Shown here piece by piece: positions 11,453 through 23,130 of a stretch of 64,000 bases of DNA; position 1 is the stretch's first letter; each line of letters starts with the position of its first letter. The stretch is from the sequence record LC788710.1; one strand, 5' to 3'. The position numbers were made by a program, and so were the translations under genes. The notes below the pieces were generated by a model. It searched no databases and was not told where the DNA came from. It saw only the letters and a list, made by a program, of their open reading frames with translations. This stretch comes from Escherichia coli phage Wa28.

Positions 11453-11533
11453 TGGTAGGGATGGAGGGACTCGAACCCACACCCGAAGACTAGAACCTAA
11501 ATCTAGCGCGTCTGCCAATTTCGCCACATCCCC
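11453..11533 (-). tRNA. tRNA-Leu (anticodon TAG), manual call
   Basis: Anticodon stem-loop CTAGA-TTTAGGT-TCTAG, extended variable arm, CCA end. Confidence 0.55.
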
Positions 11534-11859: not shown

Positions 11860-11938
11860 TGGTGGAGAATAAGAGATTCGAACTCTTCTGATATCCTCGG
11901 TGCAAGCGAGGTGTCCACTCCAAGCAGACCCATTCCCC
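11860..11938 (-). tRNA. second tRNA-Ala-like gene (anticodon TGC), slightly longer, manual call
   Basis: G3-U70, anticodon stem-loop CCTCG-CTTGCAC-CGAGG; D-arm not resolved. Confidence 0.45.
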
Positions 11939-13395: not shown

Positions 13396-13472
13396 TGGAA
13401 GCGGGTGCAGGAATCGAACCTACCTCTTTCTAGCTTATGAGACTAGCGATCTCTACCAGAGATCTAACCCGC
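13396..13472 (-). tRNA. tRNA with CAT anticodon (Met/fMet candidate), manual call
   Basis: Loop CTCATAA; apparent mismatch at acceptor pair 1:72, which suggests initiator-like. Confidence 0.5.
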
Positions 13473-13479
13473 AATTGTT

Positions 13480-15181: not shown

Positions 15182-15264
15182 TGGCGGGCCGTGTAGGATT
15201 CGAACCTACGTTGTCTTTCGACATGGATTAACAGTCCACCGCCAAACCGCTTGGCTAACGACCC
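15182..15264 (-). tRNA. tRNA, anticodon read as GTT (Asn?) but with long variable region; manual call
   Basis: Perfect T-arm GTAGGTTCGAATCCTAC, acceptor pairing, CCA end, loop CTGTTAA, 13-nt variable region. Confidence 0.45.
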
Positions 15265-16086: not shown

Positions 16087-16161
16087 TGGTGCACCCTGTT
16101 CGTATCGAACGAACCTCTCAAGCTCTTCAGGCAAGCGCTAATCCATCTCAGCTAAAGGTGC
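16087..16161 (-). tRNA. tRNA, anticodon not resolved by eye
   Basis: GTTCGTATCGAAC T-arm with 5-bp stem, acceptor pairing, CCA end. Confidence 0.4.
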
Positions 16162-16811: not shown

Positions 16812-16829
16812 ATCCTTTACCTTTAATTT

Positions 16830-16917
16830 GGTGGGCGTTAATGGAGTCGAACCACTCGAGTCGCAATGACCAGGGATTTACAATCCCCTCCGCTACCACT
16901 TACGGAATAAACGCCCA
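16830..16917 (-). tRNA. tRNA-Tyr (anticodon GTA), class II, manual call
   Basis: Anticodon stem-loop GGGGA-TTGTAAA-TCCCT, long variable arm, CCA end. Confidence 0.6.
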
Positions 16918-17411: not shown

Positions 17412-17684
17412 TTAAACTCCTGATTCTTCAGCCAGATCAAGCCCAACCAACGTGATTGCCATAATAGCCGCGCCATGTTCTTTCTCCCCTAGCTCTTTGG
17501 CTTGAGCGAGAATATTGAGGAATTGCTTTTGAAAATCTGCAACTTCTTCTGTCATGCCTGCTTCAGCAATAATTCCTTTAAGCATAAAGCGTTGTGCCGT
17601 AATTTCAGGATTAGCCATTTGTTTTCTCCAGTTATTTAGAATGTAAGCCAAACTTAGGATCATAGCGATCGTAAGTCGTACCAT
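17412..17684 (-). CDS. hypothetical protein
   Basis: ORF track 90 aa. Confidence 0.45.
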   Translation of the reverse strand: MVRLTIAMILSLAYILNNWRKQMANPEITAQRFMLKGIIAEAGMTEEVADFQKQFLNILAQAKELGEKEHGAAIMAITLVGLDLAEESGV

Positions 17685-17769
17685 TAGTTGAAGCCTTAAT
17701 GCTATGGAAACGACAGTACATAAATTTACGTAGTGCTTTCTTAATAGCTTTCATTTTATTTCCTTAATT

Positions 17770-17846
17770 TGGTAGGGGTGGTGGGATTCGAACCCACAAA
17801 ACCTGAATTTTAAGTCCAGTACCTATGCCAATTCGATTACACCCCC
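17770..17846 (-). tRNA. tRNA with anticodon read as TAA but class I length (Leu-UAA? or misread Phe); manual call
   Basis: GTGGGTTCGAATCCCAC T-arm, anticodon stem-loop CTGGA-CTTAAAA-TTCAG, CCA end. Confidence 0.45.
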
Positions 17847-17854
17847 ATGTAATC

Positions 17855-18208
17855 TTAGCGAATCTCTAAACCCTGGAAATATCGAGGGAATGGAGAGCCA
17901 ACTTCAAAATTGATGCCCCAATTAAGTTCAACGAGTTCAGATTTATTAAGATCTAGGCCATTACCTTCAAAGATATAGCCGTAAACCGCAGGAAACATAG
18001 CTGCTAGATCTTCCATATCGGAATGAGCATTGTGTTCTTCACGGAACTGCTCAAACTCTTCAAAGAACTTTTCTAGGAAGAACTCAGGTACGATGAACGT
18101 TACCACATCAGTAGAATCATCGGTACGATACACCGTAGCTTGGAACAAGCCAACACCTAAAAGGTTTATTGCCGGAGTAGTAAAAATATCCATCTTAGCC
18201 TCGCTCAA
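17855..18208 (-). CDS. hypothetical acidic protein
   Basis: ORF track 117 aa. Confidence 0.45.
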   Translation of the reverse strand: MSEAKMDIFTTPAINLLGVGLFQATVYRTDDSTDVVTFIVPEFFLEKFFEEFEQFREEHNAHSDMEDLAAMFPAVYGYIFEGNGLDLNKSELVELNWGINFEVGSPFPRYFQGLEIR

Positions 18209-18380
18209 TGTCTAGACAAATTGCATATTCAGGGTTGATACCAGTACCTTTACATGTAGGACATTCCCATTCTCTACAGAAAATACCCCCCGGTTCTGCA
18301 TCATCCTGCCTACCACCACCATGACAGTCCTTACACCGACATTCTTCTAATGCTTTCTTCATTTCATAGAATCTAGACAT
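18195..18380 (-). CDS. small zinc-ribbon-like protein
   Basis: 61 aa; CKDCHGGG...CPTCKG. Confidence 0.4.
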   Translation of the reverse strand: MSRFYEMKKALEECRCKDCHGGGRQDDAEPGGIFCREWECPTCKGTGINPEYAICLDIERG

Positions 18381-18397
18381 ATAGTCTCCTGGTTAAT

Positions 18398-18475
18398 TGG
18401 TGGCTCCCGGAGGATTCGAACCTACCTACCTTTCGCTTATGAGGCGACGGCTCATACCAAATGAGCTTGAGAACC
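18398..18475 (-). tRNA. tRNA with CAT anticodon (Met or Ile2/lysidine candidate), manual call
   Basis: D-arm GCTC-ATTTGGTAT-GAGC, loop CTCATAA, acceptor GGTTCTC/GGGAGCC with G-U pairs. Confidence 0.5.
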
Positions 18476-22299: not shown

Positions 22300-23130
22300 A
22301 TTTTTAAGAACTCTTATAAAAGCTCTTAAAGATACCAGACGGTAGGTAGGGTCAGCCCCCTCAGATTAAGCTCTGCAGCCCTTCCGTCAGACAATATCTT
22401 CCAGTTTAAGTCAGGGTGACTTTGTGGTTATGTTCTCCGTATGTGAAGAACTCGGTTAGGCTTAGGTCATGACTCCCAGCCTACTGCTGCCGCTCAACAG
22501 GAATTATCGCGAATTACCTGTACTATTGGGCACCATTAGTGACATCTCTCATGTCAGCGTTTCCCACTCTCATATTCACGCGGTCTGTTAGAATCGCACC
22601 TCCGATTTTCGATGCGAAGCTGGATGCCTAGTCTCAGGTTAAACGGGGCACACACTAGGCAGTGATCCCGAGTTCCGAGTTTGGTTGAGGCCGTCAGGTT
22701 TCCTCGTGGTTTAGCTGTTTCGATTCTAACCTAATACTGATCAGGTGGCGTACCTCCTGAACCGTCATAGTATGTACTCCAGCAGCGAATGCTTATCCGG
22801 TATAAGCCCGAGTTATCTGATTCTTTCCGACCGCAGGATTCGAACCTGCATCTTCCACCAGTTACGGTTTGATATTACCGTTTATACTAGGACGGCAGTG
22901 TTATCACATAAGTCAGTTCGACACCCCACTAACATAAACTAGAGAAGAGTTTACGAGATTTCGGGACAGCTCCCGAGTTTTCCGCAGATTTTCAGTTCCC
23001 TATCAATAGCAATAAGCGTTAGCTCGTAGCCTCTCTCAGAGTACTTACTAGTCTCCAACTCACCGACTCTATTCAGTGGAATAGCTATCCTAGTAGGAAT
23101 CACTAAACTCACTCAGCGTAATCGGCTCGC
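22300..23130 (-). ncRNA. ~0.8 kb promoter-driven region without ORFs; candidate structured noncoding RNA(s) with a tRNA-like T-arm element
   Basis: No minus-strand ORF of 60 aa or more; early promoter at 23152-23180 points into it; GCAGGTTCGAATCCTGC element near 22826-22850; locally higher GC. Confidence 0.35.

What the first reader, a model, noticed from the sequence alone, without database searches (positions are those of the whole stretch)
17770..17846. Class-I-length tRNA whose anticodon reads TAA
The locus has a perfect T-arm and acceptor stem. The anticodon hairpin CTGGA-CTTAAAA-TTCAG gives anticodon UAA (Leu codons UUA/UUG) but the variable loop is only 5 nt, unlike bacterial tRNA-Leu. 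It is either a non-canonical decoder or my reading is off by one base (CTGAAAA would be a normal tRNA-Phe).
Basis: seen in the sequence. Interest (0 to 1): 0.4.

Follow-up and report, generated by a model that had tools for sequence, protein, structure and literature searches.

The report
Armless leucine tRNA in T5-like phage
This is a real, conserved phage leucine tRNA (anticodon UAA) that lacks the long extra arm bacterial leucine tRNAs normally carry; such armless leucine tRNAs turn out to be common in phages with many tRNA genes, which matters because the host enzyme is said to charge only the long-armed form.

Summary
Window 17770-17846, minus strand, is a 77-nt tRNA with CCA encoded, a 7-nt anticodon loop CUUAAAA (anticodon UAA) and a 5-nt variable loop GUUUU. 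There is no off-by-one error, and a separate tRNA-Phe(GAA) lies at 16087-16161.

The window is Salmonella phage BSP22A, a T5-like phage. The gene is at least 99% identical in 291 phage records and is annotated tRNA-Leu.

It belongs to a large phage family of type I (armless) Leu tRNAs. Across 64 distinct members, 98.9% of stem positions pair and 19 of 20 pairs show compensatory changes.

Every member keeps the reported E. coli LeuRS identity set: A73, A15:U48, G18G19 in the Leu register, A20a and the U54:A58 T-loop. Only the arm is missing, and that arm is reported dispensable for E. coli LeuRS.

A 77-nt relative in phage BF23 is annotated as an efficient amber suppressor in E. coli after an anticodon swap.

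In a sample chosen independently of Leu, about one fifth of phage Leu tRNAs were armless.

The most likely function is a Leu-inserting tRNA reading UUA/UUG, which make up 22% and 11% of Leu codons in the window. Charging with leucine is inferred, not shown. Why the arm was lost is unknown.

The parts
17770..17846 (-). Whole tRNA-Leu(UAA) gene, 77 nt, with the 3' CCA encoded
   Evidence: ARAGORN; Rfam RF00005 57.4 bits; annotated tRNA-Leu in KY787212.1
17840..17846 (-). Acceptor stem 5' strand GGGGGUG (G1 at 17846); G1 pairs with U72 as a wobble
   Evidence: Sequence; helix 1 shows 7 of 7 pairs with double changes in the family; phB7 variant U72C restores G-C
17821..17837 (-). D-arm AUCGAAUUGGCAUAGGU: 3-bp stem plus an 11-nt loop with A14, A15, G18, G19 and A20a. 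It has the same 17-nt layout as E. coli leuZ
17803..17819 (-). Anticodon arm CUGGA-CUUAAAA-UUCAG; the loop carries C32, U33 and A37A38
   Evidence: helix 3 shows 5 of 5 pairs covarying
17810..17812 (-). Anticodon UAA (plus strand reads tta)
17798..17802 (-). Variable loop GUUUU, 5 nt (type I); the last base is U48, partner of A15
   Evidence: U48 in 91 of 91 family members, though this column was partly constrained by the search pattern
17781..17797 (-). T-arm GUGGG-UUCGAAU-CCCAC
17773..17780 (-). Acceptor 3' strand CACCCCU plus discriminator A73 (17773)
   Evidence: A73 in 91 of 91 members, and this column was not constrained by the search pattern
11453..11533 (-). Second phage Leu tRNA, Leu(UAG), 81 nt, with an intermediate 9-nt variable region UCUUCGGGU. 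It shares G1.U72, A73 and the AAUUGGCA D-loop
16087..16161 (-). The window's genuine tRNA-Phe(GAA). It is not part of the feature but is listed because it rules out the Phe reading

Best explanation
The locus is a functional phage-encoded tRNA-Leu(UAA) of type I architecture: a leucine tRNA whose long variable arm is replaced by a 5-nt loop. Shown here: it is a bona fide tRNA gene under purifying selection, and it belongs to a widespread phage family of armless Leu tRNAs. That family combines a type-II-style Leu D-arm (3-bp stem, 11-nt loop, A14 A15 Y16 N17 G18 G19 Y20 A20a) with A15:U48, A73 and a UUCRANY T-loop. Inferred: the host LeuRS charges it with leucine through those elements. According to the identity review, these elements, and not the arm or the anticodon, define leucine identity for E. 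coli LeuRS. The tRNA then reads UUA, and UUG by wobble, during infection. This would supplement the host's tRNA-Leu(UAA), which I recall from background knowledge to be a minor species, for a 40% GC phage genome in which UUA is 22% of Leu codons. The gene has no promoter or terminator of its own. It is probably cut out of a polycistronic early transcript that also carries small ORFs and neighbouring tRNAs. Why the arm was lost is not established. The simplest reading is that the arm is dispensable for enterobacterial LeuRS, so it can be lost without cost.
For: Gene reality: ARAGORN and Rfam at 57.4 bits. Conservation: 291 records are at least 99% identical and 332 cover at least 80% of the gene. 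The four substitutions seen in close relatives all preserve structure: C20U, U.G to U-A, G.U to G-C and G-C to G.U. Covariation on 64 distinct sequences: 98.9% paired, 19 of 20 pairs with double changes, score 0.878 against 0.236 in shuffles, 0 of 500 shuffles as high, and 33-48% paired in slid controls. Identity elements: U8, A14, A15, G18, G19, A20a, U48, U55, C56, A58 and A73 are invariant in 91 unique members. This matches the E. coli set given in PMC9976931 and PMC6614811. [quoted passage not shown] Specificity: D-arm motif + A73 + U48 occurs in 117 of 138 type I Leu and 14 of 28 type II Leu, and in 0 of about 1,380 tRNAs of other isotypes. Function in E. coli: the GenBank note for BF23 tRNAL1 (77 nt, 5-nt variable loop, about 71% identical by my count) says that replacing its anticodon with CUA gives an 'effective amber suppressor'. 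Demand: TTA is 20.0 per 1000 codons (22% of Leu) and CTA 15.7 per 1000 (17%) in 57 window ORFs, and these are the codons the two phage Leu tRNAs read. The loop has U34, A35 and A36A37A38, which are the determinants listed for TrmL and i6A37 modification in PMC9976931.
Against: No aminoacylation or expression data exist for this tRNA. The BF23 evidence is a depositor's note on a relative, and it does not say which amino acid was inserted. PMC6614811 reports that EcLeuRS 'only charges type II tRNALeu', could not leucylate the natural type I tRNA-Leu(CAA) of S. coelicolor, and has an LSD domain that favours tRNAs with a large variable loop. Efficient charging is therefore not guaranteed. The single-sequence MFE is not a cloverleaf: -24.7 against -20.9 kcal/mol, z = -1.2. 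However, 10 of the 29 window tRNAs behave the same way. With the anticodon masked, an independent type II Leu profile does not beat Tyr, Lys or Cys (34.5 against 35.7, 34.4 and 34.0 bits). The D-arm-only comparison favours Leu only weakly for this one sequence. T5 and BF23 lack the gene, so it is dispensable for the phage type. Part of the family's D-arm and U48 invariance was imposed by my search pattern.
Confidence: 0.8

Rival explanations
1. It is the same functional Leu tRNA, but arm loss is an adaptation rather than a neutral loss. An armless tRNA-Leu would escape host or competitor factors that recognise type II tRNAs or host tRNA-Leu, such as tRNases, and so keep Leu decoding alive when host tRNA-Leu is attacked.
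For: Phage tRNAs are documented as counter-defence against tRNases: PrrC, PARIS AriB and retron Eco7 PtuAB. tRNA-Leu is a real nuclease target in Salmonella, where the Gifsy-1 terminase cleaves tRNA-Leu(PQTV). Human SLFN11 is cited as cleaving type II tRNAs (reference list). Arm loss is largely Leu-specific: about 9-11 of 48 Leu tRNAs are short, against 3 of 49 Ser and 1 of 29 Tyr in a sample unbiased for Leu. It recurs across several anticodons and phage families. Position 32 is C in 85 of 91 family members but U in host leuZ. A Marinicella copy sits beside the RNA repair ligase RtcB.
Against: I found no nuclease that recognises the variable arm of bacterial tRNA-Leu. The Gifsy-1 enzyme cuts the anticodon region of a different isoacceptor (CAG). 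HepS targets Thr, Ile and Ser tRNAs. The bacterial Schlafen studied cuts the anticodon arm, and no type II preference is reported in the passages I read. Many phages mix type I and type II Leu tRNAs (25 of 87 loci), and T5 keeps a type II Leu(UAG).
Confidence: 0.13
2. It is a non-canonical decoder. The tRNA would be charged with an amino acid other than leucine, for example Phe, whose anticodon GAA differs from UAA only at position 34. It would then recode UUA/UUG in phage proteins.
For: The class I length is unusual for Leu. A35, A36 and A73 are shared with tRNA-Phe. EcLeuRS is reported not to charge one natural type I tRNA-Leu.
Against: All reported LeuRS identity elements are present. The Leu-type D-arm + A73 + U48 signature is absent from all 47 phage Phe tRNAs and from every other isotype. 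The Phe profile is not among the top six scores. The window's own tRNA-Phe has a different D-arm and T-loop. TTA is a major Leu codon in the window's ORFs, so recoding would alter proteins throughout.
Confidence: 0.04
3. It is a decayed or non-translational tRNA-like element: a pseudogene that lost its arm, or an RNA used only as a processing signal or decoy.
For: T5 and BF23 do without it. T5-like genomes carry annotated 'tRNA-like RNAs with unknown functions'. The MFE fold is not a cloverleaf.
Against: It is near-identical in about 290 genomes, and the only variants preserve structure. The family covariation covers all four helices. The CCA end, the anticodon loop with U33 and A37, and the tertiary-pair nucleotides are all intact. 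A family member works as a suppressor in E. coli according to a GenBank note.
Confidence: 0.03

Closest known systems
Canonical bacterial type II tRNA-Leu, e.g. E. coli leuZ tRNA-Leu(UAA), 87 nt
   Same: Same anticodon UAA. Same 17-nt D-arm layout (GUGGAAUCGGUAGACAC in leuZ, AUCGAAUUGGCAUAGGU in the phage). Both have A14, A15, G18G19, A20a, U48, A73, a G1.U72 wobble, a UUCRA T-loop and A36A37A38.
   Different: leuZ has a 15-nt variable arm with a hairpin, while the phage tRNA has 5 nt. Position 32 is U in leuZ and C in the phage. There is no significant overall nucleotide similarity: blastn against 5,426 E. coli genomes found no chromosomal match, only 23-nt T-arm matches on plasmids.
BF23 tRNAL1, tRNA-Leu(UAG), 77 nt (GenBank AJ604530.1)
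   Same: Same phage family (Demerecviridae), same type I architecture with variable loop GUUUU, and the same D-loop AAUUGGCAUA, A73 and T-loop. It is annotated as an efficient amber suppressor after an anticodon swap.
   Different: It has a different anticodon (UAG), sits at a different position in the tRNA cluster, and is about 71% identical with different stems. BF23 and T5 have the homing endonuclease hegA where BSP22A has the Leu(UAA) cassette.
Streptomyces coelicolor type I tRNA-Leu(CAA) (Fan et al. 2019, PMC6614811)
   Same: It is a short-variable-loop tRNA-Leu that coexists in one compartment with type II Leu tRNAs and a single LeuRS.
   Different: It is a cellular gene with anticodon CAA. 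ScoLeuRS does not use A73 and needs a special LSD. EcLeuRS cannot charge it. The phage family instead keeps the E. coli-type identity set. I could not obtain the Sco sequence, so homology was not tested.
Animal mitochondrial tRNA-Leu(UUR)
   Same: It has anticodon UAA, a short variable loop, and A73 and A14 as identity elements (PMC9976931).
   Different: It is an organellar tRNA with a floppy structure, charged by a dedicated mitochondrial LeuRS. I did not compare its sequence or D-arm with the phage tRNA, and there is no indication of common descent.
Engineered minimal E. coli tRNA-Leu lacking the variable arm (Larkin et al. 2002, as summarised in PMC9976931)
   Same: It shows that E. coli LeuRS can aminoacylate a tRNA-Leu without the long arm, provided A73 and the D/T-loop tertiary contacts are intact. 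The phage tRNA fits that description exactly.
   Different: It is a laboratory construct. The primary paper was not available to me, so I cannot cite relative efficiencies.

Membership tests
tRNA (Rfam RF00005) | Cloverleaf with conserved D-loop and T-loop nucleotides, scoring above the family gathering threshold | tested here: met
   57.4 bits against a gathering score of 29; ARAGORN call; covariation in all four helices of the family
tRNA-Leu as recognised by E. coli-type LeuRS | Discriminator A73 | tested here: met
   A at 17773; 91 of 91 in the family, and the column was not constrained by the search; the requirement is stated in PMC9976931
tRNA-Leu as recognised by E. coli-type LeuRS | A15:U48 Levitt pair | tested here: met
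   A15 is present and U is the last base of the variable loop. The pairing itself is inferred from sequence
tRNA-Leu as recognised by E. coli-type LeuRS | G18G19 in the Leu-specific D-loop register, plus A20a and U8:A14 | tested here: met
   The D-arm has the same length and register as leuZ. A14, G18, G19 and A20a are invariant in alignment A1
tRNA-Leu as recognised by E. coli-type LeuRS | Elbow pairs G18:U55, G19:C56 and U54:A58 | tested here: met
   The T-loop UUCGAAU carries U54, U55, C56 and A58. Tertiary pairing is inferred
tRNA-Leu as recognised by E. coli-type LeuRS | Actual aminoacylation with leucine | not testable with these tools
   The only indirect evidence is the GenBank suppressor note on BF23 tRNAL1. 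EcLeuRS failed on the Streptomyces type I tRNA-Leu
Canonical bacterial (type II) tRNA-Leu architecture | Long variable arm of more than 10 nt with a hairpin | tested here: not met
   The variable loop is GUUUU, 5 nt, against 15 nt in leuZ. It should therefore not be filed as a type II tRNA
Type I tRNA-Leu (known from mitochondria and Streptomyces) | Leu anticodon combined with a short (4-5 nt) variable loop | tested here: met
   Anticodon UAA and a 5-nt loop
Type I tRNA-Leu (known from mitochondria and Streptomyces) | Common descent with those tRNAs | not tested
The phage D-arm resembles gamma-proteobacterial type II Leu, which suggests independent origin
   The loop is CUUAAAA. The true tRNA-Phe(GAA) lies at 16087-16161
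   The Phe profile is not in the top six scores with the anticodon masked. The Leu signature is found in 0 of 47 phage Phe tRNAs

The most novel reading that the evidence does not exclude
[quoted passage not shown] By shedding the feature that marks type II tRNAs while keeping every LeuRS identity element, phages would make a Leu tRNA that host LeuRS still charges. Host or rival-phage factors that recognise type II tRNAs or host tRNA-Leu (tRNases, modification or turnover systems) would no longer see it. This would extend 'phage tRNAs evade tRNases by anticodon-loop mutations' to whole-domain remodelling. It would also mean that enterobacterial LeuRS routinely serves both tRNA types in infected cells, contrary to the published view that only Streptomyces LeuRS does so among prokaryotes.
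Probability: 0.15. Interest if true: 0.7.

Novelty: new member of a known kind. Interest (0 to 1): 0.4.

Why it matters
The gene itself is routinely annotated as tRNA-Leu. What appears not to have been described, at least in the literature I could search, is that it belongs to a large, phage-borne lineage of armless (type I) leucine tRNAs.

Textbooks and the 2019 Streptomyces study treat bacterial tRNA-Leu as essentially always type II. That study describes E. coli LeuRS as charging only type II tRNA-Leu.

If the phage tRNAs are charged by enterobacterial LeuRS, as their intact identity set and the BF23 suppressor note suggest, two things follow. They would be natural minimal substrates for dissecting LeuRS recognition, and they could serve as compact Leu or suppressor tRNA scaffolds.

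They also pose a concrete evolutionary question. In these phage tRNA arrays, Leu loses its arm much more often than Ser or Tyr does, and the reason is unknown.

For annotation, the finding explains why isotype-model-based pipelines may label such genes 'tRNA-OTHER'. Some hit rows listed tRNA-OTHER in this 3-kb region, but I did not check which gene the label belonged to.

Tried and rejected
1. Thermodynamic folding of the single sequence. The MFE is not a cloverleaf and z = -1.2. I rejected this as evidence either way, because 10 of the 29 window tRNAs behave the same and the cloverleaf lies only 3.8 kcal/mol above the MFE.

2. Host similarity. blastn of the tRNA against 5,426 E. coli genomes gave only 23-nt T-arm matches on plasmids, so no host donor is identifiable.

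3. Proxy for isotype models. Full-length HMMs with the anticodon masked put the type I Leu family first. The independent type II Leu profile only tied with Tyr, Lys and Cys. The D-arm-only comparison favoured Leu weakly for this sequence and clearly only for the family. The result is inconclusive for direct descent from type II Leu.

4. In-place arm deletion. The Leu(UAG) genes of T5 (85 nt), BSP22A (81 nt) and BF23 (77 nt) differ throughout their stems. I rejected simple deletion in favour of gene replacement within a mosaic region rich in homing endonucleases.

5. Defence-nuclease leads. I recalled a Salmonella prophage nuclease linked to tRNA-Leu. HepS turned out to target Thr, Ile and Ser tRNAs. 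RemAIN's targets were not given in the text I could read. The Gifsy-1 terminase does cleave tRNA-Leu, but it cuts the CAG isoacceptor in the anticodon region. None of these links to the variable arm.

6. Literature. Eight searches (one search was badly posed and uninformative) and the T5, BF23 and phage-tRNA papers contain no description of an armless phage tRNA-Leu. Larkin 2002 and Sargen 2024 were not held. Older Russian-language T5/BF23 tRNA papers could not be searched.

7. Promoter and terminator scan. Nothing exceeded chance.

Full report
WHAT IS THERE

Window 17770-17846 encodes, on the minus strand, a 77-nt tRNA:
GGGGGUG UA AUCGAAUUGGCAUAGGU A CUGGA CUUAAAA UUCAG GUUUU GUGGG UUCGAAU CCCAC CACCCCU A CCA.

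ARAGORN calls it tRNA-Leu(taa) at exactly these coordinates. The Rfam tRNA model scores it 57.4 bits against a threshold of 29, which places it mid-range among the 28 tRNA hits in this cluster.

The anticodon stem is 5 bp, the 7-nt loop is CUUAAAA with U33, the anticodon is U34-A35-A36, and the variable loop is 5 nt.

Two details need correcting. The gene is on the minus strand. The acceptor stem begins with a G1.U72 wobble, so it is not fully Watson-Crick.

The 'off-by-one, really Phe' possibility is excluded by the sequence itself and by a separate tRNA-Phe(GAA) at 16087-16161.

WHERE IT COMES FROM

The window is 100% identical to Salmonella phage BSP22A (KY787212.1; Epseptimavirus, Demerecviridae), a T5-like phage. 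Window coordinate equals record coordinate minus 20025.

The tRNA lies in the 29-gene tRNA region, between two small hypothetical ORFs (BSP22A_0084 and 0085). No promoter-like or terminator-like site above chance lies nearby. It is presumably processed from a polycistronic transcript; this is inference.

The 77-nt sequence is at least 99% identical in 291 phage records and covers at least 80% of the gene in 332. These are almost all Salmonella, Escherichia, Shigella or Citrobacter T5-like phages, where the gene is annotated tRNA-Leu.

The only variants I found in close relatives are C20U in the D-loop, U11.G24 to U-A, G1.U72 to G-C, and G49-C65 to G.U. All of them preserve structure.

Phage T5 and BF23 themselves lack the gene. 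The HNH homing endonuclease hegA occupies the syntenic position. That explains why the classical T5 tRNA work would not have met this gene.

IT IS ONE OF A LARGE FAMILY OF ARMLESS LEU tRNAs IN PHAGES

More distant blastn hits led to 77-nt Leu tRNAs with 5-nt variable loops in several phages:
- BF23 (UAG)
- Vibrio phage JSF10 (UAG)
- Aeromonas phage AhP_Mru1 (UAA) and Aeromonas phage 4_4572 (UAG)
- Proteus phage M4H10_20 (a tandem UAA + UAG pair)
- the Pseudomonas schitovirus ZC08 (UAA)

I then scanned IMG/VR with a signature requiring the shared D-arm, a UAR anticodon and a 5-nt variable loop.

ARAGORN on the 40 loci I submitted to the tool (L013-L052), and again in a script on 87 of the fetched loci, found 75-77 nt Leu tRNAs at the hits checked. 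It also found further short Leu tRNAs with CAA, GAG and AAG anticodons beside them. In 48 of those 87 loci every Leu tRNA is short, and in 25 short and long Leu tRNAs are mixed. All but one of the 95 Ser tRNAs are still 85-94 nt, and most Tyr tRNAs remain long (81-96 nt), with six shorter calls.

On 64 distinct 77-nt sequences, which are 48-84% identical to the BSP22A tRNA, the cloverleaf is strongly supported:
- 98.9% of cells form standard pairs, against 67% in shuffles and 33-48% when the partners are slid.
- 19 of 20 pairs show changes on both sides.
- The covariation score is 0.878 against 0.236 in shuffles, and 0 of 500 shuffles reach it.

This is a real tRNA lineage under selection, not an annotation artefact.

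HOW COMMON

The first sample was selected for the trait. I therefore drew a second sample of 120 viral contigs through an unrelated tRNA-Phe signature.

Of 48 Leu tRNAs found there, 11 are 79 nt or shorter. About 9 of these carry the Leu-type D-arm, and all 9 lie in stretches with at least 10 tRNAs. By comparison, 3 of 49 Ser and 1 of 29 Tyr tRNAs are short. Roughly a fifth of phage Leu tRNAs in this small sample are armless, and the trait is largely specific to Leu.

The same narrow signature occurs only 17 times in one genome each of 185,579 bacterial and archaeal species.
- 14 of the 17 lie in stretches that carry other tRNA genes.
- 11 of those are dense arrays of 9-23 tRNAs on MAG contigs of discordant taxonomy, which probably represent binned phage DNA.
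- In one stretch (L147) ARAGORN calls no Leu at the match.
- The apparent exceptions are L136, where only 635 bases were held, and two Marinicella contigs, including the isolate M. marina S1101.

WHAT SAYS IT IS A LEUCINE tRNA

According to the identity review PMC9976931 and the introduction of PMC6614811, E. coli LeuRS does not read the anticodon or the long arm. It depends on:
- A73
- U8:A14
- the A15:U48 Levitt pair
- G18G19 in their particular register, and A20a
- the elbow pairs G18:U55, G19:C56 and U54:A58

The BSP22A tRNA has every one of these elements. Its 17-nt D-arm has the same layout as E. coli leuZ: a 3-bp stem, then G13, then AAUYGGYA. In 91 unique family members, U8, A14, A15, G18, G19, A20a, U48, U55, C56, A58 and A73 are invariant. 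A73 and the T-loop were not constrained by my search pattern. The D-arm and U48 were partly constrained.

Across the parsed tRNAs of the first viral sample plus the window's 29 genes, the combination of Leu D-arm motif, A73 and U48 occurs in 117 of 138 type I Leu and 14 of 28 type II Leu. It occurs in none of about 1,380 tRNAs of other isotypes, including 0 of 47 Phe.

The architecture is therefore a hybrid: a type-II-style Leu D-arm joined to a type-I variable loop.

Experimental support is indirect. The GenBank record of the BF23 tRNA region carries the note that tRNAL1 becomes an 'effective amber suppressor' when its anticodon is replaced by CUA. tRNAL1 is 77 nt, has variable loop GUUUU, and is about 71% identical to the BSP22A tRNA by my count. 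A family member is thus processed, charged and used by E. coli ribosomes. The inserted amino acid is not stated.

WEAKER OR NEGATIVE RESULTS

The single-sequence MFE is not the cloverleaf, but a third of the window's tRNAs share that behaviour.

With the anticodon masked, the tRNA scores 55.6 bits on a type I Leu profile, about 20 bits above anything else. On an independent type II Leu profile it only ties with Tyr, Lys and Cys.

A D-arm-only comparison ranks the two Leu classes first and second by class mean (6.1 and 2.0, next best 1.0). On the mean of the five best matches, Lys edges ahead of type II Leu. The direct link of this one sequence to type II Leu is therefore weak. For the family the link is clear, because leuZ's D-arm scores the type I family above every non-Leu class.

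Most importantly, Fan et al. report three things: EcLeuRS could not leucylate the natural type I tRNA-Leu(CAA) of S. coelicolor, the EcLeuRS LSD favours large variable loops, and ScoLeuRS is 'the only prokaryotic LeuRS' charging both types. In that system A73 and the elbow are not identity elements. The Streptomyces tRNA may therefore simply lack what EcLeuRS needs. Even so, efficient charging of the phage tRNA remains an inference.

LIKELY ROLE

The window is 40% GC. In 57 ORFs of at least 100 codons, TTA is 20.0 per 1000 codons (22% of Leu), TTG 9.8, CTA 15.7 (17%) and CTG 20.8 (23%).

From my background knowledge, not computed here, E. coli uses TTA for about 13% and CTA for about 4% of Leu codons, and CTG for about half. 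The phage's two Leu tRNAs (UAA and UAG) thus match the Leu codons it over-uses. This fits the classical codon-supply role.

The anticodon loop has U34, A35 and A36A37A38. These are the determinants listed for TrmL 2'-O-methylation and the prerequisite i6A37, so host modification enzymes could act as they do on leuZ. This too is inference.

WHY THE ARM IS MISSING

This is not resolved. The Leu(UAG) genes of T5 (85 nt, type II), BSP22A (81 nt, 9-nt variable region) and BF23 (77 nt) differ throughout their stems. Arm length therefore changes by gene replacement in this mosaic region rich in homing endonucleases, not by simple in-place deletion.

The default explanation is that the arm is dispensable for gamma-proteobacterial LeuRS and can be lost.

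A more interesting possibility is escape from factors that recognise type II tRNAs or host tRNA-Leu. Phage tRNAs are established counter-defences, and tRNA-Leu is cleaved by the Gifsy-1 terminase in Salmonella. However, that enzyme cuts the anticodon region of the CAG isoacceptor, HepS targets other tRNAs, and I found no arm-recognising bacterial nuclease. I give this possibility about 0.13-0.15.

NOVELTY AND VERDICT

The gene is already annotated as tRNA-Leu in hundreds of records. Type I tRNA-Leu is a known kind, from mitochondria and Streptomyces.

I found no description of armless Leu tRNAs in phages in the searchable literature. That library omits most subscription and older Russian papers from the group that deposited the BF23 and T5 tRNA records.

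I classify the locus as a new member of a known kind, of moderate interest. It is a tidy, testable exception to 'bacterial-system tRNA-Leu is type II and EcLeuRS charges only type II'. It is widespread in phages, but it is not mechanistically surprising, given that the arm is known to be dispensable for E. coli LeuRS.

Noticed in passing
window 15182-15264 (-): tRNA-Asn(GUU) is 83 nt with a 13-nt variable region GUCGAAAGACAAC that can form a small hairpin. This is a class-II-length Asn tRNA, the opposite oddity to the armless Leu.
   Followed up: no
window 11453-11533 (-): The second Leu tRNA, Leu(UAG), is 81 nt with an intermediate 9-nt variable region. The corresponding gene is 85 nt (type II) in T5 and 77 nt (type I) in BF23, with divergent stems.
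   Followed up: partly
window 22825-22896 (-); 11860-11938 (-); 16829-16916 (-): The two tRNA finders disagree. Rfam reports a weak tRNA hit at 22825-22896 (29.3 bits, just at threshold) that ARAGORN does not call. ARAGORN's second tRNA-Ala(UGC) (79 nt) and its tRNA-Tyr (88 nt) do not reach Rfam's gathering score.
   Followed up: no
window about 17630-18400, compared with T5 NC_005859.1 36182-37163 and BF23 AJ604530.1 8969-9950: BSP22A has a cassette of a small ORF, tRNA-Leu(UAA) and two small ORFs. At the same place T5 and BF23 have the HNH homing endonuclease hegA. This is a presence/absence polymorphism at a homing-endonuclease site.
   Followed up: partly
viral loci, e.g. L099 4930-5021, L025 2356-2447, L017 4722-4815: 19 of 21 'tRNA-Ile(UAU)' genes in the tRNA-rich viral contigs are 90-99 nt, with a real extra hairpin in the variable region and A73. 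These are class-II-length tRNAs with a UAU anticodon. Their D-arm is not Leu-like.
   Followed up: partly
L149 870-946 and 1065-2270 (Marinicella marina S1101); L145 4826-4902: A lone 77-nt type I tRNA-Leu(UAG) of the phage family lies in an isolate genome, 118 nt upstream of an RtcB RNA-repair ligase gene (Pfam RtcB, 432 bits). A near-identical tRNA occurs in a Marinicella MAG.
   Followed up: partly
viral and MAG loci L048 3787-3861, L049 6235-6311, L052 2827-2902, L133 334-408; L141 2317-2391, L144 1742-1815; L016 13937-14332, L030 6645-6980, L051 759-1051, L141 1643-2011: Several tRNA-rich phage-like contigs carry CUA-anticodon tRNAs (called 'Pyl' by ARAGORN, likely amber suppressors). L141 and L144 carry UCA-anticodon tRNAs (called 'SeC', likely opal suppressors). 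L016, L030, L051 and L141 carry tmRNA genes.
   Followed up: no
window 13396-13473 (-): One of the three CAU-anticodon tRNAs ends in UUCCA, so its discriminator is U73. By synteny it corresponds to the gene annotated as initiator tRNA-fMet in BF23. The CAU tRNA at 18398-18475 corresponds to the gene annotated tRNA-Ile2 in T5 and BF23.
   Followed up: no
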